In this document: piece by piece, positions 4,770-63,391 of the stretch
Position numbering within the stretch: position 1 is the first letter of the stretch
How the letters are laid out: each line of letters starts with the position of its first letter
From: Eledone cirrhosa
Taxonomy: Eukaryota
DNA: 64,000 bases
Direction of reading: 5' to 3'
Assembly (NCBI GenBank): GCA_964016885.1
Contig: OZ024745.1
Location: 18,910,001-18,974,000, forward strand
Position numbers and translations under genes: made by a program
Notes under the pieces: generated by a model
What the model saw: the letters and a program-made list of their open reading frames with translations, nothing else
Told to the model about the DNA's origin: nothing
Databases searched by the model: none

Positions 4770-5872
4770 TTATATAGTTTCTTGATTTAGAATGGGATTA
4801 AGAACATTTAGCGAAGTTGTGTTTGACGTTGTATTTGGGTTTGCAGAAATTAGCCTAGAGTTTACAATGACGTCGGGAGTACTATTACTATTATTATGAT
4901 ATTCAGTGTTGGAAGGAAGAGATTTAGTATTTAGTATTTTATTGTTGTGTTTAGAGATAATGTTGGAAATGTTGGAGGATGTCGAATAGGAAAATTTTAT
5001 AGTGTGTTTGTTAAATATTTTACTATAGATATGTGAGGGAGGGAAGCATTTATTTAAGGCACTAAAGAATAATTTAGGAATATTATTATTAATAGAGATA
5101 GAGAAAGGAGCATTATACCAGATTATGCTTTTGTATCTAGGTCTTTTATTAAAGTTATTGGAATGATCATGATTAATTATTCTACTGTAAGATCTTCTAG
5201 AATTTGTTTCTTTACTATATTTGATTTTATCAGGATAGCCGGCTTTAGAAAGAAAGCGCGTTATTATAGTAATTGGCGTTAGCATCAAAGATATTTTTAT
5301 TAGAAGATAGGTTAGATATTCTTTTTCCAATATTACTAACTATAGCATTCTTAATATTAGTGGGGTGGTTAGATCTAAAATTAACATAATTTAGGTTCTC
5401 ATTGTTTTTTATGGTAAGGGATTATCCTTAGGCCAGTGTCAAGATTAAGAGATACATCCAAGAAATTAACTAGTTTGATGCTGTTATCAAATTCAATTTT
5501 TAAGTTATGTTTGTTAAAGAGATTACGTATATTGTTCTTAATAATATTAAGGTTAACTATGTTGCAATTTAAGATAGTAAAGAGTTCATCGTCACGATAA
5601 ATTCCACCGCGAAGTTGAGGAATTTTCCGACTCGAAGAGTTCAAAATGAAGATACCAATTAAATCTGTCAATTGGGATGAATCGGATGCTCCCATTGTGA
5701 TGTCGAAGTTGTTAGAGGTATCAGCTCTGGTCCAATATTCATTGTTGAATTCTAGGATGGTTTTACGTGCGGTTAGAATGATGTGAAGTTCATCTGTGGT
5801 GATGTCAGAATATTTAAATGCGAAAGATAGAGCATTGTTGAGAAGTGAAGGCGAAATCTTATTCATGCTCAT
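4770..5872 (-). pseudogene. Hydra-type PLE RT fragment
   Basis: FDITMGASDSSQLTDLIG, GGIYRDD, VNFLDVSLNL, WYNAPFS; collinear with the 54-56 kb ORF; 5857-5934 is an inverted copy of 4303-4380. Confidence 0.85.
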
Positions 5873-5914
5873 CTCACAATATATCCTTACTTACATTACT
5901 TTTGTTTTTTTAAT

Positions 5915-7470: not shown

Positions 7471-7805
<335 letters not shown>

Positions 7806-7810
<5 letters not shown>

Positions 7811-9998
7811 TACAGAATAATCAAAACTATGGTCAAAACATTTTATTGCTGACAATCGTTTCTTCCAAACTTTCGTTTGGAATCATCGGAGCGTTAGCAA
7901 AGTTTAGACATATAATTAACCTCCTATTCCACAGAACAATCGTAAAGGCACGTAGATATTACTGTTGTCACTAACGGTGTCATATTTAAAGATTGAAGGG
8001 TGATGTTAGAATCATTGGGTGCGACAAAGATTATAAAAGAATAATACAACAATTATAGAAGAATTAAAGAAGAAAGTTACTCTCAAAATGAGGACTTTAG
8101 CGGTACATAGGCAAACATATAGAAAGAGTGCAGATGTATTAGGCATGTACAGAGTAACAAGGTGAAAAAACGAACAATGGTACTAAGCATATATATTACA
8201 GTATGGAAAAGGTATCACATAATACAATACAGGTGTAAAAGCATATCTAGCAAACAGAGATGCGTGGGTATGAAAAGCAGTTTCTATGATAGTTTATGGT
8301 GAATGCAATGTGAAAATTGTTCCGGTAATGTTCAAATGTATGTGTTGTGAGTGTTAATACCAAGGTTTTCTTTCCATTACATTGGTTATATTTTAGGAAA
8401 TGTTTATCAGTAGCTACAACTATGGATTGTGTATTGGTCTCACTACAATCTTATCAAAGGCTAGAGATGTTCTGGAGTGATCTGTCTAACGGTTTAATTT
8501 CAGGAAGTGATTAGAGATCTACACTAAGGGGAGCTAATGGGAAGGGGGGGGGGGGGCTAATTGCTGATTAATTTGTGTATAAGAGAAAAATGTATAGTCT
8601 GGTGTTAGTTATTTATGACTCCAATTAGTTAAATTCTATGTGTTAATATACAATATATTATATTATAAGTGAATCCTTTTATATAATGCTATTTATTTTT
8701 ATAATTTTATATTTTTATACTTAATTTTATATACAATCTGTTATCTATATAATATTTTTAAAGTTTCAATTTACCACTACCTACCCATATACTAATTAAA
8801 TGAATGAAATATTGGTAAGGAAGGTATTGTAGTTATATTAAGTGGTGGTAACTTTATGTTTATTCCCAATAGTTATTGTTGAGTATAAGATCTGAGATAA
8901 ACAGGAGATAAGTGGAGGGATGAGCTGATACACGAATGTGATCTATGGAGGTATTATATGCTGATAAAACCTAGAGGTAAAGTGTTAACGGTGGTGAGAA
9001 ATCCAATCTGACATTGTTATATATTAGCAGCTAGGTTTGAAATTGTGGAAAGGGTGTCAGTGGTAGTGTTGGCACGTGAAAAACTTTCTGATTTTCTATT
9101 TTAAAGGTTTAGCTTAGAATAGATTATAGTGTGAGTCTCTAGAAGACAGATGTTACATAATCTATTCGGTGGTTTATACGAGGTGGCCCTATCTATTACT
9201 TCCCATTGAAGTGTATATGGTCTATTCCTAGTTTTCAGAGAGTGTATGTAGGTAGATAAAGAAGTGTAATTAGCTAGATTGCAATTTTTGAAAAGGTGAA
9301 GATGCGAGTTATATCTCGTCTTGAAGTAGTTCGAAGTATAACCAATATATGTTTTCGAAGTGTTTTTTGTAACAACTGTGCATGAGTAAATGATGTCTTT
9401 GATTAAGCAATTTTTTTCCCAAGGGGCAAGTTCTATTTGTTCTACAATTACAGTTATTTTGGTTGTTTACTTGCTGGTTAATAGGGTGTGTAGATGCATG
9501 GTTGTTAGGGAGAGAATTTGGGTAATGATGATTATAATTCCCATTGTTATTAATTTCATTAGTGCTATTAATATTATTATTACTGCTACTAGAATTCTCC
9601 GGTACTATGTTGTTATGTAGGTTCACCCCCTGTTGTGATTTATTTAATTTGGAAATTATTAATCTTCCTTTTATTACTACTAGCTATATGGTTCGCGATG
9701 TTAGGTGTGGTAGAGTAAGAGATTTTAATGGTATTTTTATTGATAAAATTATGGTTTTCTATGGCCGACTGGGAAGTTATTTTCTAAGATTGAGAAGAAA
9801 GCCTTAGGCAAGTTGGTGGAAACGTTTAAAAGGGGGATTGAAAATGTATTAGTTCTTCTTCTATTTATGCGATTATTTTTTGTAATGTTAGTTGTAGTAT
9901 TGTTTATATTTCTGTTTATATTATTATTATTAGGATGTTTATTTTGGTGCGAGTTAACTTTGTTATTACCCTTCATACTAGAGTTAGAGTGGCCAGTA

Positions 9999-10000
<2 letters not shown>
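7806..10000 (-). mobile_element. 5'-truncated decayed Hydra-type PLE (C-terminal region + 3' UTR)
   Basis: STNLPKAFFSILENNFP, CNCRTNRTCPLG and a frameshifted GIY-YIG remnant at 9100-9400, similar to the 54-56 kb ORF; variant HHR at 7846-7900. Confidence 0.8.
7846..7900 (-). ncRNA. Variant hammerhead, CCGAUGA core
   Basis: Reverse complement: GCT-CCGATGA-TTCCAAAC-GAAA-GTTTGGAA-GAAAC-GATT-GTC-AGC-AATAAA. Confidence 0.75.
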
Positions 10001-10037
<37 letters not shown>

Positions 10038-40199: not shown

Positions 40200-42914
40200 G
40201 GGTGTGTATGATTGTGTATAGAAGATTATATTAATAAAAGGAATTCCAACTGATTTACTCGTTTTATTTACAATCCTTTAAAATTTATAATGGTATTAGA
40301 ATGAAATAGTATGGTAGAATATTAAATGTTAAGTGTTAATTGAACAAGTACTTTCATGCTTTCGCAATCTTCAGGTTCATATTCTGTGGTGACAGTCAAG
40401 TTTGCAATTTTCAACTGTAATGAGATGGGTAAATTTTGTGCCTTATATACAGAGAAAAGCGGCTACAGAATGCTAAATCTTGCAAACTGTATTTCGACCA
40501 ATCGGTGTGTAGTTTCACTGGATTACTAAAGCTGATTGGTTTAGGCGTCACGGTTGGTTTAGCATGTCTAACGACTACTAATTGACCCTATCCAAAGCAT
40601 CAATTGTTTTGCTATTTTTAGAAATGATGAAAATAGCATTTTCTAGTAATCATCATCATCAACATCACTTTTATAATTATTATTGCTAGATGGTTACTCA
40701 GGGGTATCTGACGGACATTTGGGTCTCTGATTTGCTGTCGGTGTACCCGTGCACGTTCCGATAGTGTATTTCCAGTTTGACCGACATATAGTTCTTCACA
40801 ATTCGGGCATTTGATGCAGTAAATTAGATTTCTGCTTTTGCAGTATATATTTGCATTTGGGAATATTTTTCCAGTTTTTGTTTTCATATATTGACCGGCG
40901 TGTATGGATTGACATGTGCCACATCGACTATCATTGCATTGAGATACAGTGAATGATTGGTCTTTGTTGTTAAGAGTCAAAGATCGATCTATGATTAAGC
41001 CTTTTAATTCATTACTTTGTGCAATGATCGGTTGGTTTGCTTTGGCAGTGTTGAAGATATTCTGGTGACATTGGTTGTGTGTCATTATAAATGGTATGAC
41101 CAGTTCTTGGTTTCTTCTTCCTTGGGTTGTCCTAAGTTGTTGTATAGGTATTTTTATAGCCCGCTGTATGCCATTTTCTATAAGTAGAGATGGGTATTTT
41201 TGTTTGAGCAAAAATTCTCTTAGTTCTGTTAGGCGGTTGTTCCTGGTATTCGTATCTTCTACAATGGTACAAATTCTTCTGGCTAGGCAGTATGGGATGT
41301 TGCGTTTTGTATGAGGTGGATGGCACGACTTAAAATTCAGATATTGATGGGTGTCTGTGTGTTTATAATATATATCCGTGGTAATGGTGGTGTCGTTTTT
41401 GATTATCATTATATCTAGGAATGGTAATTTGGTACTACTCATCTCTTTTGTGAATTGGAGAGATGGGTGTAGGTTATTCAGGAGGATATTGAACTCATCC
41501 AGAGTATCTAGAGATTCTGTCCAGATGATAAAACAGTCGTCAAGGTATCGCTTCCAAGATTTTTCAATGTACTTTCTAAAGTCAGTACTATATTTTTCCT
41601 CTATTTCTTGGTAGAGTTGTTGTTCTAAGTATCCCATTACAGAGTTACTAAACGGGACCAAACTTCGTTCCCATCGCTGTGCCTCTAATTTGGATGTAAT
41701 TCTTTCCATTGAAGAAGAAAGTGTTGTTTTCCAGAATAAGTTTAACTGCATCTAATATAAATGGCGCTGTGAATCTGATGGGAATCACTTCTCTATGTTT
41801 TTCCACGCAGTATTTAACCGCCTTTATTCCTAAATCATGTGTAATGTTGGTGTAAAGACTTACCATATCAAAATTAAGTAGAAGTGAATTCGTTTCCGTG
41901 GTTTTGGGAAGATGGGACAGGAAGTCGATATCATCCCAGATGAAACTGGGTATGTGAATACATAGTGGTTTCAAAATAATGTCAACAAAATTGCTTAGAC
42001 GGTGGGTAAGGCATGTTGGACCAGCTATAATAGGTCTAAGTTTTAAGTCTTTTGGGTGTAGTAATTTAATGTACTCACTGTTTTGTTCTTTTACTGCCAG
42101 TTGTATTTCTTTTGACTTATGAACTTTCGGTAGGCCATACAGGTTGCTGGGTTTTGACTCAAAATTGGTGATGTAGTCTCTTTCCTTATCAGTAAGTGAG
42201 TTGTGGTATTTTGAAGCCAGGTTGTTGATCTTCTTCATGATGTTGTGGTCTATATTTGACGGTATTTCATGATAGAATGTTGTGTCTTTCAGTTGTTCCT
42301 CAACCAAATCCTTGTAGTATTCAGTATCCATTATAACAACTGCACCCCCTTTATCTGCTTGTTTAATTATTATTGTTTTATTATTTTGTATACGCAGACA
42401 TTTCTGATTTGTTAATGTTTGGCCTAACATTAGTATTACGTCTAAGAGGAAATTTAGACAGGATGTCAATGTATTGGTCGAGATAGATATTTCTTCCTTT
42501 TGGCGGAATGAATTTTGATTTATTCTTTACTAGTGATTCATCACTCTCATTACTTTTATCAGCGAAGAATTCTACAAGACGTAATTTTCAACAGAATTCT
42601 TGGGTATCCTCCTTCAGTTCTTGGTGGTTGACTGTTGGAGACGGTGTGAATTTCAGTCCTTTTGACAGAATTTGCATTTCATCATTGTCAAGATCTCTTT
42701 TGGATAAATTAATTATTTTAGGATCTACGTGTACAGTTGTTTATATATATCCGCAACCGGTAAAAACTTAAAACTAAAACTGAATACTAACCAATACTTA
42801 TTACTAATTTTTACTTATTCCTAATTAAACTATTTTTCACTGGGAAAAAATTGTCAGCATTTTCTTTTCCTTTTACTAATATATCACAACTCGTGTGTTA
42901 CACCTCTATTCTTT

Positions 42915-52918: not shown

Positions 52919-53457
52919 CAGGAAAGAAGGTTTACATGGTTTGCTATACAAAAAAGTTTTTAATCACATAGCTTACATTTGTTTCACTGAACTGGTATGT
53001 CTAGAGATCGCTATCCGCTTAATTTTGCGTTACTCGATCGCCAATACAGAATTATAACCAGTCAGATCTTCGGAGCATGCGAGAATGAAGAAAATACACA
53101 GGCAAGAAAAGAAAAGAAAATACAGGCTACTATATGAAGTAGTAACGGCATTCAATTAGAACAATAACAACAATTACAACAATGCTATCAATAAATTATT
53201 TAAGGAGACCCTGACATTACTTAGGTGGGGGGTATATAATGTATCTAATGTTACGGCGTGAAAACTAGCTGTCATAAGGCAAAATGAAGCGTTGACATGT
53301 ACAAAGTATCGTAGTGTATATCAATTTTAAATTATAAAGATAAGCTAGTTTTTACAGTCTTTCTCTTCATCTTCGACAGTATACATGAGTGGGACCACTG
53401 TCAAAGCTAAATAGTTGTAGAGTTAATACAGAGGTTAACGAATTAATATACGCATAT

Positions 53458-53598
<141 letters not shown>

Positions 53599-54134
53599 TA
53601 CACATGCATGTGTACATAGACACATACATACACATCAATATACACTCGTACAAAAATATACATACATGCAAAGAGAAAGCGTGCTAATTGTAATTATGGC
53701 AAAAAGAAGGTAAAGTAACATTGTAGTAGTGAAATGAGAAAAACTAGGATTTAGGATCAAATGATGGCAGCAGCTGAGAAGGAGTAAGATTGTTGGTAGA
53801 TGAGGTACTTACAGACAATTTTGTGGTATAGACTTGTGAAGGATATAGTATACTTAATGAATATATTTCTGTGGGTAGTAGGTATCCTAATTTAAAGCTA
53901 TGTTATGTTGGTTCGATTCACGGAGGTTTGAATCTTATGAATTTAGTGGCTATTCTATGTCTGCAGAAGATAGATCTTTCTAACTTATTGTTAAGTAGCC
54001 TTTTAACATTTCTAAGGATATACAATAGCTCAAGATCACACAGCCCGCAATCCCTGTACTATAGGTTTTAGCAGCCGACAACTTCGACCAGTTGATACTG
54101 TAGTTAGTGTTGCTGTCCTTCAATTCCCATATTT

Positions 54135-56215
54135 TAAATACATTACTTAAAAAACTAAAAGACACTAACGGTATCATAGTAAAAGCAGACAAAACATCAA
54201 ACGTATACTCTATGGACATTAACACATACAATAACTTTATTCAGCGTGAACTACATAAAAAATATAAAAAAACAAATGAATCTACACTCACCAGCATTAA
54301 CATGGAGGGCCTCAAGATAGTTAATAAACTCGGAATTTCAGATAGGACCGAACCGCTTACCCCGTGCAACCCTACATTTAACCTGAAGGATCACAAAAAT
54401 AACTTTGAAACTAATCCCACCATTAGATTAATATGCCCATCCAAGTCAGACATAGGTAAAATTAGCAAAAACATTCTAGATAGGGTAATCGCACAAATAA
54501 AGGGTAAACTAAAAATCAATTTATGGGGCAACACTAACGAGGCAATTAAATGGTTCAATAAAATACAAAATAGGGAGACGTGTAACTTCATACAATTTGA
54601 TATAGACGACTATTATGCATCCATATCCCCAGCTACCCTAGATAAGGCGCTTATATTTGCCCAAAATAACTCTGATCTTACCCATGATGAAATTGAAATA
54701 ATAATAGCGGCTAGAAGGACTATCATAAAATTTGAAAATAACTACTGGGTAAGAAAGGATAGAATAAATAGCTTCGATATAACAATGGGATCAAATGATT
54801 CTGCGCAAATCACAGATATCGTGGGGCTATTCATAGCACACAACCTACATAAGGAATTCAGTAACCTCCAAGGAGGAATTTATAGGGACGACACGTTACT
54901 TATAGCTAGGAACATAAACAACCAGAGCATGGAAAGACTAAGGAAAAATATTAGAATATTCTTCAAAAAACTAGGCCTAAGTATTACCTACGAACTAAAC
55001 CATAAGAAGGTAAATTTTCTAGATGTAACTCTAAATCTAAATACTGGATTAATAGAACCTTTCCACAAAAATAATGAAAATCTTACCTACATTAGTTACA
55101 ACTCAAATCACCCCAAATCCATAATTAAATCCATAGCACGTAGTATATCCCTCCGAATATCCCGCTTATCCTCAAACCTAGAAATCTTTAACGAGCATGC
55201 TGACTATTATAATGCAGCATTAAGTAGGGCCGGTTATAAAGATAAACTACAGTATATAGTGAATAAGGACAACATAAACAATCCTAGTAATTACTACTCC
55301 AACCGCTCACATAATAATAGGAATAGCTTGACTAGACATAGGGTTAGACATGTAACACCTGGAGTAAACGGCCAAAACACTAATAACGTAAACCCAAGAA
55401 ACAATAGAAGAAACAGACAAAGAAAATACCTATGGTTCAACCCAATATTCAACTCCTCTATAAAAACTAGACTGCCCTCTACATTCTTTAAACTAATAGA
55501 TAAACACTTCCCTATCTCGCATAGATATCACAAAATACTCAATAGATCTACTATAAAACTCTCATTCTCAACAGCAGCTAACATAGAATCACACATACGC
55601 AAGATCAACCACAGAAATATCTCTAGTAAATCAATTGCACCTATACATAGGCACAAACTCATCACAACATCACAACCACAAGCGCATACAAACGCGCAGC
55701 AGCAAAACCCCATTGGGCATATATCACAACCCACTTATAACAGAGTACTAAATAGGAATGTAAAAGCTGCACAAAATAGCGCCTCAAACTGTAACTGTCA
55801 CCTCCCAGATAGGTGCCCATTGGCGAACAGATGCCTCGATTCGAGCCTGGTGTACATGTGCACTGTCATCTCGGGTAACTCCACCTGGAATTACATAGGA
55901 TCCACCGCGGGTTCTTTTAAGAAAAGATGGTATGTGCACAGGCACTCAATGAAAAACCGTGCACTTATGGGTTCCACCACCCTCGCCAGAAAAATATGGG
56001 AATTGAAGGACAGCAACACTAACTACAGTATCAACTGGTCGAAGTTGTCGGCTGCTAAAACCTATAGTACAGGGATGTCCTATTGCGGGCTGTGTGATCT
56101 TGAGCTATTGTATATCCTTAGAAATGCTAAAAGGCTACTTAACAATAAGTTAGAAAGATCTATCTTCTGCAGACATAGAATAGCCACTAAATTCATAAGA
56201 TTCAAACCTCCGTGA
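54135..56215 (+). CDS. 5'-truncated PLE ORF (RT + CxCx5C linker + GIY-YIG), Hydra-clade-like
   Basis: KADKT, LKDHK, RLICPSKSDIG, QFDIDDYYASI, FDITMGS, GIYRDD, VNFLDV; CNCHLPDRCPL; LVYMC...YIGST...FKKRWYVH...CGLCDLE...CRH. The first ~10 codons of ORF call 54107 come from the inverted arm. Confidence 0.9.
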
Positions 56216-56534
56216 ATCGAACCAACATAACATAGCTTTAAATTAGGATACCTACTACCCACAGAAATATATTCATTAAGTATACTATATCCTTCACAAG
56301 TCTATACCACAAAATTGTCTGTAAGTACCTCATCTACCAACAATCTTACTCCTTCTCAGCTGCTGCCATCATTTGATCCTAAATCCTAGTTTTTCTAATT
56401 TCACTACTACAATGTTACTTTACCTTCTTTTTGCCATAATTACAATTAGCACGCTTTCTCTTTGCATGTATGTATATTTTTGTACGAGTGTATATTGATG
56501 TGTATGTATGTGTCTATGTACACATGCATGTGTA

Positions 56535-56693
<159 letters not shown>

Positions 56694-57073
56694 AAATATA
56701 TGCGTATATTAATTCGTTAACCTCTGTATTAACTCTACAACTATTTAGCTTTGACAGTGGTCCCACTCATGTATACTGTTGAAGATGAAGAGAAAGACTG
56801 TAAAAACTAGCTTATCTTTATAATTTAAAATTGATATACACTACGATACTTTGTACATGTCAACGCTTCATTTTGCCTTATGACAGCTAGTTTTCACGCC
56901 GTAACATTAGATACATTATATACCCCCCACCTAAGTAATGTCAGGGTCTCCTTAAATAATTTATTGATAGCATTGTTGTAATTGTTGTTATTGTTCTAAT
57001 TGAATGCCATTACTACTTCATATAGTAGCCTGTATTTTCTTTTCTTTTCTTGCCTGTGTATTTTCTTCATTCT

Positions 57074-57190
57074 CGCATGCTCCGAAGATCTGACTGGTTA
57101 TAATTCTGTATTGGCGATCGAGTAACGCAAAATTAAGCGGATAGCGATCTCTAGACATACCAGTTCAGTGAAACAAATGTAAGCTATGTG
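57074..57190 (+). ncRNA. Variant hammerhead, CCGAAGA core, long stem II (inverted copy at 52965-53081, -)
   Basis: CGCATGCT-CCGAAGA-tCTGACTGGT...ACCAGTTCAGt-GAAAC-AAAT-GTA-AGCTATGTG. Confidence 0.7.
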
Positions 57191-57482
57191 ATAAAAAACT
57201 TTTTTGTATAGCAAACCATGTAAACCTTCTTTCCTGATTTATTATTACTCCAAGTGTTTACAACATAGGAATTACAGCATACCCGCATCATCACTATGAA
57301 AACGCCTTGTTGATTCAAACCAAGCCAAGCATTAATATCATCCACTACCTGGAATACCATAACTGGACTTCACCTAAGTGGACTGCATTTAACTATTATT
57401 TGTTAATCCGTATATATATATATATATATATGTATATATTAATTCAAAATATTAACAACATAGATATTCTTGTGATCAAGTA

Positions 57483-57549
57483 TATTTTATTATACATATT
57501 TCAGAGGTACTGAGTTAACTTCAACAGTACGTCCTCATCAGATAAAATA
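57483..57549 (-). ncRNA. Type I hammerhead in solo fragment
   Basis: Reverse complement: TATTTTAT-CTGATGA-GGACGTACTG...CAGTACCTCT-GAAAT-ATGT-ATA-ATAAAATA. Confidence 0.8.
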
Positions 57550-57764: not shown

Positions 57765-57977
57765 CGTTTCTGAATTTGTTTAGCAAGATTCTTTATCTGA
57801 AATCGTGTGTTGAAACCGATATTGTTATACTTTGGGAGGGTCATGTTGCCAATAAGAAACACACGCACCAGTCGCTTTCACTTCAATTTAATTTATTATA
57901 TATTTATAAATTTACAAATTTATAAATTTCTGGTTGGTTGGTTGGTTCCACAACCAGATAGTTGTTTATATATATAT

Positions 57978-58022
57978 AGTCATAGTTCTTTCGTCACACA
58001 CTCTGTGACCTCTTCAGTGACT
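57978..58022 (-). ncRNA. Minimal hammerhead in 3' pLTR of intact PLE
   Basis: Reverse complement: AGTCA-CTGAAGA-gGTCACA-GAGTG-TGTGAC-GAAAG-AA-CTA-TGACT. Confidence 0.85.
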
Positions 58023-58305
58023 GGGGATTTCTTTCTTCGTTTCTGTGCCTTTCCTTTCTTCTATCCTACGCCATTTTGTTTGTGTGTGGGTTGCGTGCTC
58101 AGTTTGCGCATGCGCCACATCCGGGTGTCTGTGTGTATTTGTGTTCATTTTTCTATTTGTTTGTTTATTTATTTATTTATTGTTGGTTGGTTGTTTGTTC
58201 TATATGTGTGTGTGTTTTCATTTTGTCTTGTGTGTGTTTTCATTTTGTGTGTGTTTTCAATTGTAAGTTGTTTGTTCTATGTGTGTGTGTGTTTTCATTT
58301 TGTCC

Positions 58306-61300
58306 TTAATTGTAAGTTGTGATGTTGCTGTTCCACTCATATTTTCTATTTAATTTTGGTTTTAATTCTTTTATGCTTACTGCCTCTGTAATTTGCCTAA
58401 ACATTGCGTCTTTCTTGTGTGTGGATTCTATTTTTATTTTTATTTCTATGCTCTCTAATTTACCCCTGTGTTCTATCTTAGCATGTTGGTAGAGCACAGA
58501 TGATTCTTTATTATCTTGGAGGTCTCGCCAGTGTTCATTTATTCGTTCCCCTATACTACGAGCTGTCTCACCTATGTACACTATATTTTTGTTTCTACAT
58601 TGTCCTTCAGTACATCTTATGCTATATACTACATTTCTAGTTTTACAGTTAATATGGGGGCTTATTTTACAGGTTATACATTTCTTATCTATACATGAGG
58701 GTCTTTGGAACGGGTATGTCTTGCTAATAAGTGTTTTTACGGAGGTACCAGGTCTTTCTACTATCTTAATATTGAGATTATGTTTCTTTAGGGCCCTTCT
58801 AAATTTGTAGGCTAGTTCGCCTCTAGGGGTTGTATTGATGAACATTACACTCTGGTATTTATTGCTATCATACCATGAGTTTATTCTATTGGCCTTGTTC
58901 TTAGTTCTTTCTATTCTATTCCAAAATTTGCTCCTATACAAGGGGCAGGTCCCATTTATGTCATTATTTACCATTTTTTCCCATTTGGTTCTGGCTCCTT
59001 TATACACTCTGATTCTATCTCTCTGATTGTAGCCAGAGAACTGCATACAGTGGATGAAGTGTTGTATGTGTCTCTCTAGTTCTTCGGGGTTGCACATGCG
59101 GGACACATTTCTCATCACCCGTACCAAATCCGCAATCAGTATGTTGATTTTGGTATGGTCCGAAATGGCCGAGTTTCGGTGGATCAGATGTTTGGAAGTC
59201 ATGGGTTTGGCATAATGGGAATGGAGGATTTGTTTTTGGTTGTTAATTGTATCTAACCAGAGCTCTGTGTCTAGTACAGGTAATCGATGGTTGGGGTGTC
59301 TACTTGGGTAGTCTATAGTAACTCTAATGCTCTGGTGGATGGAGTTTGTTATTTGCTGGATGCTTTCCATTGTGTTTTTCTCTAGTTCCTGACTGTTCTT
59401 TAGTGGGGGTGTCTTAACTACGATGTTTATATCATCTACGTAGCGGGAGTACATTATCAGGGTTAAGCTGTCTTCTAATTGTTCATTAAGTTTTTGTTTA
59501 AGTTTACTGTCCCACCATACCATGAATAAGTTAGCTATGTCGCCTGCAATGCTAACACCAATGGCTGCTCCTTCCTCTTGGGCATATGTTTTACCATTAA
59601 ATTTGAACATATGTTCCTTAAGGGTTAATTTTATGCTGGCCCCTACCGCATGTGCAATCATTTTCTTCAGTTCATCGTGGTTTTCGGGTGTCCGTATGGC
59701 TCTGGTCCACCCGTTCCATCTATCTGTGTGGGTTTTCTTGGCCATTGAGGTAATGGTAGGTGGTCTGCCTCTTGCTGGTCTTGTAGGGCACAGGTTGCTA
59801 AGGTCATAAGTGTCTAGGTAACTATTACTATGGGTAAGCTTAAGTAGAAGTCCCAGCTCACTGGTATCAATCCCACGGAACTCAACCTTGCTCTCGCTGA
59901 TCATTTCGACGCATTTCTCCACAGCAAAATCCACGTCAATAGATGGATACAGGGACACAACATCCATACTGCCTATTATGCAGTTTGTTAGGCCCCCAGA
60001 TCGGTTACCCGCGCCGATTCTGCTGAGGAGGTCCTCCGTGCTGTCACACACATCTGGGGACATCTCAATGATGGGGCGTATGATCAGGGAGAGGAAGTAA
60101 GACAGTCTGTAGTTACTAGCAATGTTAGCCCCACAGACTGGCCGTGTTGGTGGTCCCGCGACAGGGTCCCAGCCCGTTTTATGGTCTTTTCGAAGCCCAT
60201 ACAACGCCGGCACGTCATTGTTCCAGGCCTGGAAGTTGTTGGCAGTCCTTTTGTTGGGCTGCATTATATTTGTCCACATCACCATATGGGCATTGAGGGT
60301 TTTTTCTCTATCCTCATGCTCCTGTGGTGTTACCTCTCTTGTGTTAGTGATGTGGGGTTGCATTGCCTGGATGTAGTTTGGCAGGCTGTCAACCGACATT
60401 CTGCCAGACTTGTCTGTTGGAAAGCATGCTATCTCTCCATTACGCGAGCGCTGCATGAGCTTACGCAAGCCATTTGCAGATTCTTCTCCCAGTTGCTGGG
60501 CCTCTATTCTATTATGCTTCTTGCTATACTGTTCTATAATATTTCTAAGTTCGGATTTAGCTATACTAAATTGTGCTTCTGTTTGTTCATCGACCTGCGA
60601 CGGCAACTGCGTGCGTTTGTTAAATGGCAAAGTCGTGGCGTGGACTCGTCGTAGGTCGAATGATTTATCGGAGGGGTTATAAAACGGAGAGTTCCAGGCT
60701 GCTGCTTTATGTGTACTAGTGCTATTGTTATTGTTAGTTGTGTTGTTTCTATTTCCACCAACAGCAGCAGCCTCAGCTTCATGGTTGTTTCTATGTCTCT
60801 CATAATTACTCCTGTCTCTTTCCACTGGCTCAATGTTGTTATCTACCCTATTTTGTGTGTCTGTGTGTTCGTCTTGGTTATTCTCTTTGTCCTTAGTCTC
60901 CCATCTCCTTTTCCTTTTAATCCTATTACTTTCTCTTATTTCTCTGATTTCTGTGCTACTGTCATTACTTGTTTTCTGTGTGTGTGTGTTTGTTAAGATT
61001 GTGGTGGTGGTGAGAGGCATTGAATGCGTGTGTGTTGTTGTTGTTGATGTGTGTTGTTGTTGATGTGTGTTGTTGTTGTCTCCGTGTGTGTGTGTGTTAT
61101 CGTTGTTGTGTGTGTTGTTATTGTTGTTTGTGTTTGCGTGTCTGTTGTTGTTGTATCTGGGTATGTTGCTATTGTTGTTGTTGTTGATGTGTGTGTTGTT
61201 GTTATTGTTGTCTCCGTGTGTGTTGTTATTGTTGTTTGTGTCTGCGTGTCTGTTGTATCTGGGTATGTTGCTATTGTTGTTGTTGTATCTGGGTATGTTG

Positions 61301-62037
61301 CTATTGTTGTTGTTGTATCTGGGTATGTTGCTATTGTTGTTGTTATTGTTGTTTGTGTCTGTGTGTCTGTTGTTGTTGGAATGTGTGTTGTATATGTGTG
61401 TGCGTATATTGTTGCTTTTGTTTTTGTTTTTGATGCTCCAGCGTAGTTTCGTAAATGATTTTTCTATTTCTGACAGACAACTAATCATATTTACCTTCTT
61501 GAATGTCGCAAATTTGGGTGGCAGACGTAACACAGACATTTCATTATTATCTATTTCCGTGTTTCCATAAATGTTGGTATTTTCATTGTTGAACTCTTCA
61601 GATAATGAGGTGTCGGCCATGTTGATACCGTCAATTTTGTCGGGATATCTATCGGTATACTCTATAGTATCCCGATTTAGCTTTGCCTGTTTAAGCCACT
61701 TTAATTTTCTGTTAAAGTGCTTATTACATTCTTGAGTAATGTACTGTTCTTCGGGGCGTATAAGGCTTATAAATGTTAGTTTTTCTGCTGGTGTGGTGAT
61801 TTTAGATATTTCTTGTATTAGGTTACGCTTTAGTTTTTCTTGATGACTTAATTCTCTATAGATCTTCTTTTTTATGTTTAGAATTAAAGTTCGTTTTAGC
61901 CTATCTGCTTGTTTTTTGGTGAGTTGTAATCTTCTAACGTCGGTATTGATGGTGTTGGTGTAGATTCTAGAAGTGGTGCACAGTTTTATGAAGCGTAGTT
62001 GTCGAGATGTTATGGTTTTTCGTAGACAACAGAACAT
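58306..62037 (-). CDS. Penelope-like element ORF: RT + Cys-rich linker + C-terminal GIY-YIG endonuclease (Neptune-like architecture), apparently intact
   Basis: Uninterrupted 1243 aa. RT motifs PTDKSG, GSMDVVSLYPSI, GAAIG, YSRYVDD; linker CIDKKCITC; endonuclease VVYSIRC...VYIGETARSIGERINEH...QHAKIEH...ITEAVSI...LNRKYEW. Confidence 0.95.
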   Translation of the reverse strand: MFCCLRKTITSRQLRFIKLCTTSRIYTNTINTDVRRLQLTKKQADRLKRTLILNIKKKIYRELSHQEKLKRNLIQEISKITTPAEKLTFISLIRPEEQYITQECNKHFNRKLKWLKQAKLNRDTIEYTDRYPDKIDGINMADTSLSEEFNNENTNIYGNTEIDNNEMSVLRLPPKFATFKKVNMISCLSEIEKSFTKLRWSIKNKNKSNNIRTHIYNTHSNNNRHTDTNNNNNNNSNIPRYNNNNSNIPRYNNNNSNIPRYNRHADTNNNNNTHGDNNNNNTHINNNNNSNIPRYNNNRHANTNNNNNTHNNDNTHTHGDNNNTHQQQHTSTTTTHTHSMPLTTTTILTNTHTQKTSNDSSTEIREIRESNRIKRKRRWETKDKENNQDEHTDTQNRVDNNIEPVERDRSNYERHRNNHEAEAAAVGGNRNNTTNNNNSTSTHKAAAWNSPFYNPSDKSFDLRRVHATTLPFNKRTQLPSQVDEQTEAQFSIAKSELRNIIEQYSKKHNRIEAQQLGEESANGLRKLMQRSRNGEIACFPTDKSGRMSVDSLPNYIQAMQPHITNTREVTPQEHEDREKTLNAHMVMWTNIMQPNKRTANNFQAWNNDVPALYGLRKDHKTGWDPVAGPPTRPVCGANIASNYRLSYFLSLIIRPIIEMSPDVCDSTEDLLSRIGAGNRSGGLTNCIIGSMDVVSLYPSIDVDFAVEKCVEMISESKVEFRGIDTSELGLLLKLTHSNSYLDTYDLSNLCPTRPARGRPPTITSMAKKTHTDRWNGWTRAIRTPENHDELKKMIAHAVGASIKLTLKEHMFKFNGKTYAQEEGAAIGVSIAGDIANLFMVWWDSKLKQKLNEQLEDSLTLIMYSRYVDDINIVVKTPPLKNSQELEKNTMESIQQITNSIHQSIRVTIDYPSRHPNHRLPVLDTELWLDTINNQKQILHSHYAKPMTSKHLIHRNSAISDHTKINILIADLVRVMRNVSRMCNPEELERHIQHFIHCMQFSGYNQRDRIRVYKGARTKWEKMVNNDINGTCPLYRSKFWNRIERTKNKANRINSWYDSNKYQSVMFINTTPRGELAYKFRRALKKHNLNIKIVERPGTSVKTLISKTYPFQRPSCIDKKCITCKISPHINCKTRNVVYSIRCTEGQCRNKNIVYIGETARSIGERINEHWRDLQDNKESSVLYQHAKIEHRGKLESIEIKIKIESTHKKDAMFRQITEAVSIKELKPKLNRKYEWNSNITTYN

Positions 62038-63124
62038 GGTGGTTTTCAGTATCTTGTTAGCCTGGCTAAGGCTTACGATATTTCGTTTCTGAATCTGAGG
62101 AGGTCCTCCGTGCTGTCACACACATCTGGGGACATCTCAATGATGGGGCGTATGATCAGGGAGATGAAGTAAGACAGTCTGTAGTTACTAGCAATGTTAG
62201 CCCCACAGACTGGCCGTGTTGGTGGTCCCGCGACAGGGTCCCAGCCCGTTTTATGGTCTTTTCGAAGCCCATACAACGCCGGCACGTCATTGTTCCAGGC
62301 CTGGAAGTTGTTGGCAGTCCTTTTGTTGGGCTGCATTATATTTGTCCACATCACCATATGGGCATTGAGGGTTTTTTCTCTATCCTCATGCTCCTGTGGT
62401 GTTACCTCTCTTGTGTTAGTGATTAGCAAGACATACCCGTTCCAAAGACCCTCATGTATAGATAAGAAATGTATAACCTGTAAAATAAGCCCCCATAACT
62501 GTAAAACTAGAAATGTAGTATATAGCATAAGATGTACTGAAGGACAATGTAGAAACAAAAATATAGTGTACATAGGTGAGACAGCTCGTAGTATAGTGGA
62601 ACGAATAAATGAACACTGGCGAGACCTCCAAGATAATAAAGAATCATCTGTGCTCTACCAACATGCTAAGATAGAACACAGGGGTAAATTAGAGAGCATA
62701 GAAATAAAAATAAAAATAGAATCCACACACAAGAAAGACGCAATGTTTAGGCAAATTACAGAGGCAGTAAGCATAAAAGAATTAAAACCAAAATTAAATA
62801 GAAAATATGAGTGGAACAGCAACATCACAACTTACAATTAAGGACAAAATGAAAACACACACACACATAGAACAAACAACTTACAATTGAAAACACACAC
62901 AAAATGAAAACACACACAAGACAAAATGAAAACACACACACACATAGAACAAACAACCAACCAACAATAAATAAATAAATAAACAAACAAATAGAAAAAT
63001 GAACACAAACACACACAGACACCCGGATGTGGCGCATGCGCAAACTGAGCACGCAACCCACACACAAACAAAATGGCGTAGGATAGAAGAAAGGAAAGGC
63101 ACAGAAACGAAGAAAGAAATCCCC

Positions 63125-63169
63125 AGTCACTGAAGAGGTCACAGAGTGTGTGACGAAAGAACTATGACT
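63125..63169 (+). ncRNA. Minimal hammerhead, inverted-arm copy
   Basis: Identical to the reverse complement of 57978-58022. Confidence 0.85.
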
Positions 63170-63320
63170 ATATATATATAAACAACTATCTGGTTGTGGA
63201 ACCAACCAACCAACCAGAAATTTATAAATTTGTAAATTTATAAATATATAATAAATTAAATTGAAGTGAAAGCAACTGGTGCGTGTGTTTCTTATTGGCA
63301 ACATGACCCTCCCAAAGTAT

Positions 63321-63391
<71 letters not shown>

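What the first reader, a model, noticed from the sequence alone, without database searches (positions are those of the whole stretch)
7846..7900. Hammerheads with a CCGANGA core in two different Hydra-type PLEs
Seen: CCGAUGA with a perfect 8-bp stem II, GAAA tetraloop and GUC site here; CCGAAGA at 57082 and in its inverted copy near 53070. The two families have unrelated stem II sequences, yet both have GCU/AGC stem I and C at position 4. Known: U4 of the CUGA turn is highly conserved, although PLE-associated variant HHRs exist. Inference: a lineage-fixed U4C variant that CUGANGA searches would miss.
Basis: partly seen in the sequence, partly recalled or inferred. Interest (0 to 1): 0.75.

Follow-up and report, generated by a model that had tools for sequence, protein, structure and literature searches.

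The report
Retroelement hammerheads that flip core U4
Two Penelope-like jumping-gene families in this animal genome carry a hammerhead self-cutting RNA motif with C in place of a normally fixed U in nearly all copies, and close sister families keep the U, which likely means slower cutting is tolerated because these elements are copied from uncut RNA; cutting itself is untested.

Summary
Confirmed. Both motifs are type I hammerhead folds in the pseudo-LTRs of Hydra-clade Penelope-like elements. C4 is the family state: 22 of 23 and 48 of 48 protein-picked copies. One genome-wide pattern gives 10,706 C4 against 832 U4 hits. It is not one lineage-fixed change. The window's two C4 groups are not a clade (AU p=2e-30), U4 sister families sit between them, and at least three U/C switches are forced. 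One related family also amplified A4. Another PLE group in the genome keeps U4 (100 of first 100). All 39 3' ends of family B lie about 61 or 237 nt past the predicted cut, so templates were uncut. Five or six of 15 junctions near the cut start at it, a post hoc hint of cleavage. U4C is known and active in viroid-like RNAs; family-wide fixation in retroelements was not found in my searches. This scan reported C4 Hydra hammerheads before, in this genome and three findings elsewhere. Likely a slow, still-working cutter under relaxed constraint.

The parts
7848..7892 (-). Type I hammerhead fold, family A, core CCGAUGA (C4 at 7888), 8-bp stem II, self-complementary helix III, predicted cut between 7851 and 7850
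7806..10001 (-). 5'-truncated Hydra-clade PLE copy, family A, between (TA)n runs; 3' end about 43 nt past the predicted cut
9101..9683 (-). Broken C-terminal ORF of family A: CxCx5C linker and GIY-YIG-type endonuclease part
57079..57184 (+). Type I hammerhead fold, family B (youngest subfamily), core CCGAAGA (C4 at 57083), 81-nt stem II domain, predicted cut after 57181
54104..56215 (+). Family B ORF (703 aa here, 5'-truncated; 808-aa open frames in other copies): RT with DKT, CxCx5C linker, C-terminal endonuclease
54097..57418 (+). Main family B copy; 3' end 237 nt past the predicted cut, at (TA)n
   Evidence: L061
52913..54051 (-). Inverted, 5'-truncated partner copy of family B; 3' end 61 nt past the predicted cut
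52971..53076 (-). Inverted copy of the family B hammerhead (C4 at 53072)

Best explanation
These are the pseudo-LTR hammerheads of a subclade of Hydra-type Penelope-like elements in which core position 4 has switched between U and C several times, and the C4 form is likely a slower but still working self-cutter. Shown: C4 is fixed in families A/C, young B and G; sister families keep U4; the other core nucleotides stay fixed; the copies were made from RNA that was not cut at the 3' hammerhead. Inferred: two hammerheads pair through the self-complementary helix III, possibly helped by the element's protein, and cut after N17. Inferred: because reverse transcription starts 61 or 237 nt downstream of that site, cutting would separate the start site from the element, so a lower rate costs little and U4/C4 drift nearly freely here.
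For: Family state from samples not chosen by the motif: 47 CCGAAGA + 1 CCAAAGA of 48 hammerheads in 30 protein-picked B loci; 22 C4, 1 U4 of 23 cores in 21 of 30 protein-picked A loci. With position 4 left free, first 100 listed hits counted by eye: A 86 C/11 U/3 purine (1,778 hits), G 98 C/1 U/1 A (1,074 hits); with Y at position 4: B 88 C/12 U (1,913 hits), E 2 C/98 U (2,738 hits), D 35 C/14 U of 49. Tree: at least 3 switches forced by well-supported branches, AU p=2e-30 against one clade for A/C plus B C4 rows. Rest of core: 0 of 12 columns vary across four C4 B subfamilies and 1 of 12 across five A/C subfamilies (that one from a two-copy tie), against 70 of 224 and 145 of 230 flank columns (partly circular). 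N17 is A, C or U in all 19 representatives; G17 has 45 hits against 10,706. Helix III is fully self-complementary in 16 of 19 representatives with different sequences. Uncut templates: 39 of 39 3' ends at about +61 or +237, and 14 of 30 loci cross the upstream cut site into the ORF. Hint of cutting: 5 clear and 1 ambiguous of 15 (TA)n-joined 5' ends within -11..+20 start at -2..+2 (binomial p=0.007 for 6 of 15, window chosen after seeing the data). Literature: CCGA hammerheads cleave in vitro (ZV1, bioRxiv 10.64898/2026.09.16.752053, passages; PLMVd as cited in PMC9608096, passage); U4C lowers activity in vitro but allows viroid infectivity (PMC3088659, passage); an anole PLE inserts from uncut RNA and its hammerhead needs protein (PMC11167929, passages).
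Against: No cleavage assay and no RNA data. In a pairwise mutagenesis of a type III hammerhead all single and double mutants of the CUGA turn had low activity except the C3-G8 swap (PMC9901934, passage). Family D amplified an A4 subfamily (20 of the first 53 non-satellite purine-4 hits; upstream ORF pieces), which fits a motif that need not cut at all. The youngest B subfamily also lost the helix III palindrome (duplex -0.7 against -6.4 kcal/mol). A large non-Hydra PLE group keeps U4 (100 of first 100, 82,777 hits), and so does Hydra family H (18 of 20 loci show the motif, all U4); if uncut templates are general to PLEs, they alone do not explain why only this subclade is relaxed. The stub signal rests on 15 loci of one family and could reflect TA microhomology at the junction.
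Confidence: 0.58

Rival explanations
1. C4 is positively selected: slower cutting leaves more full-length template, so C4 arose in parallel and replaced U4 in several lineages.
For: In B the U4 subfamilies are the more diverged ones (non-CpG medians 0.062 and 0.034 against 0.031, 0.027, 0.021, 0.014 for C4 subfamilies) and sister B2 is U4. In the A lineage the diverged-looking A3 is mixed (44 C/35 U/5 purine of 84; only 7 G5A) while A1/A2 and C are mostly C4. The youngest B also weakened helix III.
Against: E is large, homogeneous and U4. The root inside B is unresolved, so C-to-U reversion fits as well; parsimony is about tied. Constancy of C4 along the A/C and B ladders is no more than a neutral site could show (flank variability 63% and 31%).
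Confidence: 0.2
2. The motif no longer cuts; the hammerhead fold is kept as a binding or dimerisation site for the element's protein.
For: Templates are uncut; an A4 subfamily amplified; CUGA-turn mutants are weak in deep mutagenesis; hammerhead activity is not needed for insertion in vitro.
Against: G17 never expanded (45 hits) while A, C and U alternate; catalytic G8 and G12 are unchanged between families 38-54% identical in protein; natural CCGA cores cleave; stubs start at the cut.
Confidence: 0.12
3. C4 is fully compensated in this subclade by a structural partner or by the protein, so cutting is as fast as with U4.
For: Relaxation is confined to one well-supported subclade (100/100); tertiary contacts are proposed to offset core variants (PMC3088659); protein assistance is known.
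Against: No feature covaries with C4 in 19 representatives: stem I, N7, pair 10.1/11.1, N17 and helix III are shared by U4 and C4 forms of B and D. No rescuing double mutant in PMC9901934.
Confidence: 0.1

Closest known systems
Hydra clade of C-terminal-endonuclease PLEs (Craig et al. 2021, PMC8557442; section 11, passages, supplement part 2 read)
   Same: RWK and DKT motifs, CxCx5C linker, C-terminal endonuclease, (TA)n targets, type I hammerhead with short palindromic helix III in the 3' region
   Different: All 26 Hydra hammerhead rows (25 families) in File S2 have U4; here four lineages carry C4 and one subfamily A4
Minimal and variant PLE hammerheads (Cervera and De la Pena 2014, PMC4209133; parts 1-2 of 4 read)
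   Same: Type I, short helix I, long helix II, extra nucleotide after A9, palindromic helix III, proposed dimer activity, low in vitro rates
   Different: The core variant in the parts read is U3-A8; no position-4 change seen there. Lunse et al. 2017 and its variants could not be read
Natural CCGA (U4C) hammerheads of PLMVd, the citrus-associated viroid-like RNA, zeta virus ZV1 and betaviroid-like RNAs (PMC3088659, PMC9608096, bioRxiv 10.64898/2026.09.16.752053; passages)
   Same: Same core change; reported to cleave
   Different: Those are monomer-competent ribozymes (type III where stated) in circular RNA replicons, often as minority variants; here it is fixed in over 10,000 genomic copies of minimal type I motifs and switched repeatedly
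PAc Poseidon element of the green anole (PMC11167929; passages)
   Same: Two reverse-transcription start sites downstream of the hammerhead, AT-rich targets, uncut RNA as template
   Different: Different PLE clade; tail here is 176 nt in family B against 30-40 bp; position 4 not discussed in the passages read

Membership tests
Hydra-clade PLE | RWK motif and DKT in place of DKG | tested here: met
   Family B: both seen in the 808-aa frame of L394 and DKT in the window ORF. Family A: N-terminus not read cleanly; placed by tree with C and E
Hydra-clade PLE | CxCX5C linker before a C-terminal GIY-YIG-type endonuclease | tested here: met
   Seen in A and B; Pfam gave no hit for the B protein, so the domain call rests on motifs and homologues
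Hydra-clade PLE | No CCHH motif in the endonuclease | tested here: met
   By eye in the translations of A, B, D, G
Hydra-clade PLE | Insertion into (TA)n | tested here: met
   Family B 3' ends abut (TA)n; family A copy flanked by (TA)n
Hydra-clade PLE | Canonical hammerhead core (U4) | tested here: not met
   C4 in A, young B, C, G; U4 in E, B2, old B, H
Hydra-clade PLE | Phylogenetic grouping with named Hydra elements | tested here: inconclusive
   Trees used unnamed homologues; the published Hydra proteins were not in the alignments
Type I minimal PLE hammerhead | C3, G5, A6, G8, A9, G12, A13, A14, A15.1-U16.1 | tested here: met
Type I minimal PLE hammerhead | U4 of the uridine turn | tested here: not met
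   C4
Type I minimal PLE hammerhead | NUH cleavage triplet | tested here: met
   GUC in A, GUA in B; G17 rare
Type I minimal PLE hammerhead | Palindromic helix III for dimer formation | tested here: inconclusive
   Met in A (8 of 8 pairs) and older B; only 6 of 8 in the window's B subfamily
Type I minimal PLE hammerhead | Self-cleavage | not testable with these tools
   No assay; genomic stubs give a hint only

The most novel reading that the evidence does not exclude
Position 4 of the hammerhead is a rate dial that Hydra retroelements have turned down independently at least three times (U to C, and once on to A), because an element copied from uncut RNA gains by slowing its own ribozyme; the genomic stubs that begin at the cut site are the fossil record of residual cleavage.
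Probability: 0.25. Interest if true: 0.72.

Novelty: new variant of a known kind. Interest (0 to 1): 0.48.

Why it matters
What PLE hammerheads do is open: they are conserved, yet not needed for insertion in vitro. This genome holds a natural allelic series (U4, C4, A4) on near-identical scaffolds inside families B and D, each of which amplified, so rate against mobility can be tested directly. It also means CUGANGA descriptors skip over 12,000 motif hits here (10,706 short-stem hits plus most of 1,913 B and 1,074 G hits), and PLE families may be wrongly scored as lacking a hammerhead.

Tried and rejected
Private mutation: rejected by protein-picked copies. CpG decay as the source of U4 copies, and so as proof of selection for C4: CpG sites were not more diverged than others in B (27 of 849 against 474 of 10,518 sites), and U4 exceeds G5A five-fold in A3 (35 against 7); only in family C are U4 and G5A equal (17 and 18 on contig C1, by eye). 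One C4 clade: my first tree suggested it, but family E had been labelled C4 from C4-selected hits; one search showed it is U4. Only pyrimidines tolerated: contradicted by D's A4 subfamily; 47 of the first 100 purine-4 hits were a 16-bp satellite and were set aside. Family F: only 3 hits, all C4, no ORF found; left unclassified. Subfamily trees with untrimmed flanks and for family D (5 of 41 rows kept) were uninformative. Rfam: no hammerhead hit for the C4 motifs, nor for the U4 motif at 57541, so uninformative. Metagenome scan: 118 hits, 5 with weak stems, none beside a PLE ORF. Sequencing runs: no RNA holder listed. Contigs of four runs list no variant at position 4, but both tables were cut. 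Papers not held: Ambros and Flores 1998, Lunse et al. 2017, two guessed PMC ids. The replicate of the stub test in families A/C was not done.

Full report
Observation. A descriptor scan with position 4 free found three C4 motifs in the window, against a mean of 0.1 in 60 shuffles. The window also holds nine U4 hammerhead folds of other repeat families. It lies in a 3.0-Gb animal assembly at G000:C5:18910001-18974000.

Host elements. Motif B lies 870 nt behind a 703-aa ORF with DKT and a CxCx5C linker and no CCHH. Other copies have 808-aa open frames, 93-98% identical for most, with RWK near the start, so the family is young. Motif A lies about 1,250 nt behind a broken endonuclease part with the same linker. 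These are the features given for the Hydra clade in PMC8557442 (section 11). All 26 Hydra hammerhead rows in its File S2 have U4.

C4 is the family state. In loci picked by protein, 48 of 48 B motifs have C4 (47 intact, one G5A) and 22 of 23 A cores have C4 (21 of 30 loci reached the motif). One short-stem pattern gives 10,706 exact hits with C4, 832 with U4, 332 with G5A, 359 with a purine at 4 and 45 with G17; reversed controls were 4, 10, 3, 41 and 1. Counts within listings below are by eye on the first 100 rows or on all rows when fewer.

It is not one lineage. With position 4 not fixed to C: A1/A2 86 C, 11 U, 3 purine; A3 44 C, 35 U, 5 purine of 84; G 98 C, 1 U, 1 A; B 88 C, 12 U; D 35 C, 14 U of 49; E 2 C, 98 U; B2 27 U, 2 C (after dropping 3 spurious and 2 duplicate rows; the query had U4); H 18 of 20 loci with a motif, all U. 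I first mislabelled E as C4 because I had sampled it from C4 hits. In the corrected protein tree E is sister to A/C (99/99) and B2 to B (100/100), within a subclade (100/100) that excludes H. At least three U/C changes are forced, and holding the A/C and B C4 rows together is rejected (AU p=2e-30; broken ORFs were read through with X, and two rows fill under half the columns). Inside B, two subfamilies are U4 (10 of 10; 14 U, 3 C, 1 A of 18; plus 2 intermediate U4 copies) and four are C4. The direction is not settled. The U4 subfamilies are more diverged and B2 is U4, which favours a gain in B, but the root inside B is open. Family D has an amplified A4 subfamily with coding sequence upstream. 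A large non-Hydra PLE group, which includes the window's motif at 57541, keeps U4 in 100 of the first 100 of 82,777 hits across several stem II types.

The rest of the core is held. Twelve core columns are constant across four C4 B subfamilies and, apart from one two-copy tie, across five A/C subfamilies, while 31% and 63% of flank columns vary. This is partly circular, since many loci came from core patterns. The non-circular part is that protein-picked A and B copies, 38-54% identical in protein, share these nucleotides. In 19 representatives N7, pair 10.1/11.1, stem I and stem II vary, N17 is A, C or U, and helix III is fully self-complementary in 16. No feature tracks C4. The window's B subfamily has lost part of the palindrome (duplex -0.7 against -6.4 kcal/mol). 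CpG decay does not explain the pattern.

Mechanism. In 30 B loci all 39 3' ends fall about 61 or 237 nt past the predicted cut, 14 loci run across the upstream cut site into the ORF, and no long copy starts at the cut. The templates were therefore intact at the 3' hammerhead (or religated), as reported in vitro for an anole PLE with two start sites and a protein-assisted hammerhead (PMC11167929, passages). I took the idea of copying from uncut RNA from earlier finding e1-10319565 and tested it for B. A search for (TA)n-joined 5' ends within -11..+20 of the cut gave 15 loci: five short stubs start at -2..+2, one more is ambiguous, eight start at +3..+20 and one long copy at -11. Run-off from a cleaved RNA would give such stubs; p=0.007 for 6 of 15, but the 4-nt window was chosen afterwards, TA microhomology may contribute and the test was not replicated in other families. 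My reading is a slow, dimer- or protein-dependent cutter under relaxed constraint at position 4 (0.58). Selection for slower cutting (0.2), a non-cutting binding fold (0.12) and full compensation (0.1) remain.

Known versus new. U4C is a reported natural variant that lowers activity in vitro but permits viroid infection (PMC3088659, passage), and CCGA hammerheads of ZV1 and betaviroid-like RNAs cleave in vitro (bioRxiv 10.64898/2026.09.16.752053, passages; PMC9608096, passage). Deep mutagenesis found low activity for CUGA-turn mutants (PMC9901934, passages; its supplement was listed, not read). I found no report of family-fixed C4 in PLEs in searches, nor in the parts read of PMC4209133 (parts 1-2), PMC6765202 (passages) and bioRxiv 10.64898/2026.07.22.740005 (part 1 of 5). 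Lunse et al. 2017 and Ambros and Flores 1998 were not held, Arkhipova et al. 2017 was not looked up, and supplements of PMC4209133 were not read; any of these may bear on novelty. This scan has already noted C4 Hydra hammerheads in this genome and in three findings from other genomes (AI notes, not independent evidence).

Verdict. Real, family-fixed, a new variant of a known kind, function untested. Interest 0.48.

Noticed in passing
window +1940, -7283, +10320, -10726, +15111, +51550, -51418, +52615, -57541: Nine canonical U4 hammerhead folds of other repeat families in the same 64 kb; the group of the 57541 and 51550 motifs has 82,777 pattern hits genome-wide.
   Followed up: partly
window 58306-62115 (-), with inverted arms 57819-58651 and 62496-63328: 1269-aa frame of a non-Hydra PLE (weak RVT_1 hit) with a long Asn/Thr/His-rich N-terminal stretch and a U4 hammerhead at 57541.
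   Followed up: partly
window 4770-5890 (-): Fragment of a further Hydra-subclade RT (50-57% to family B); no hammerhead found downstream.
   Followed up: partly
window 40618-42526 (-): Frameshifted RT plus GIY-YIG-type ORF of another PLE family.
   Followed up: no
window 7630-7770: About 140-nt imperfect inverted repeat between two (TA)n runs, next to the family A 3' end.
   Followed up: no
L541-L550 (e.g. G000:C1:174247900-174251500): Family D subfamily with A at core position 4, several upstream flank types and ORF remains: amplified despite a purine in the uridine turn.
   Followed up: partly
G000:C2:255.7-262.8 Mb: 16-bp tandem satellite whose units resemble the two halves of a hammerhead core; gave 47 of the first 100 purine-4 pattern hits.
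   Followed up: no
L576, L578, L580, L587: Short family B stubs carry 5-12 extra nucleotides at the 5' junction that look like the inverted +237 end, i.e. tiny head-to-head pairs from both start sites (by eye).
   Followed up: partly
listing: In subfamily A3 the U4 share looks higher on contigs C8-C26 (23 of 39) than on C1-C7 (11 of 37), by eye.
   Followed up: no
L174, L571-L573: Three dispersed C4 hammerheads with a GC-rich palindromic helix III (family F); no ORF found nearby.
   Followed up: partly
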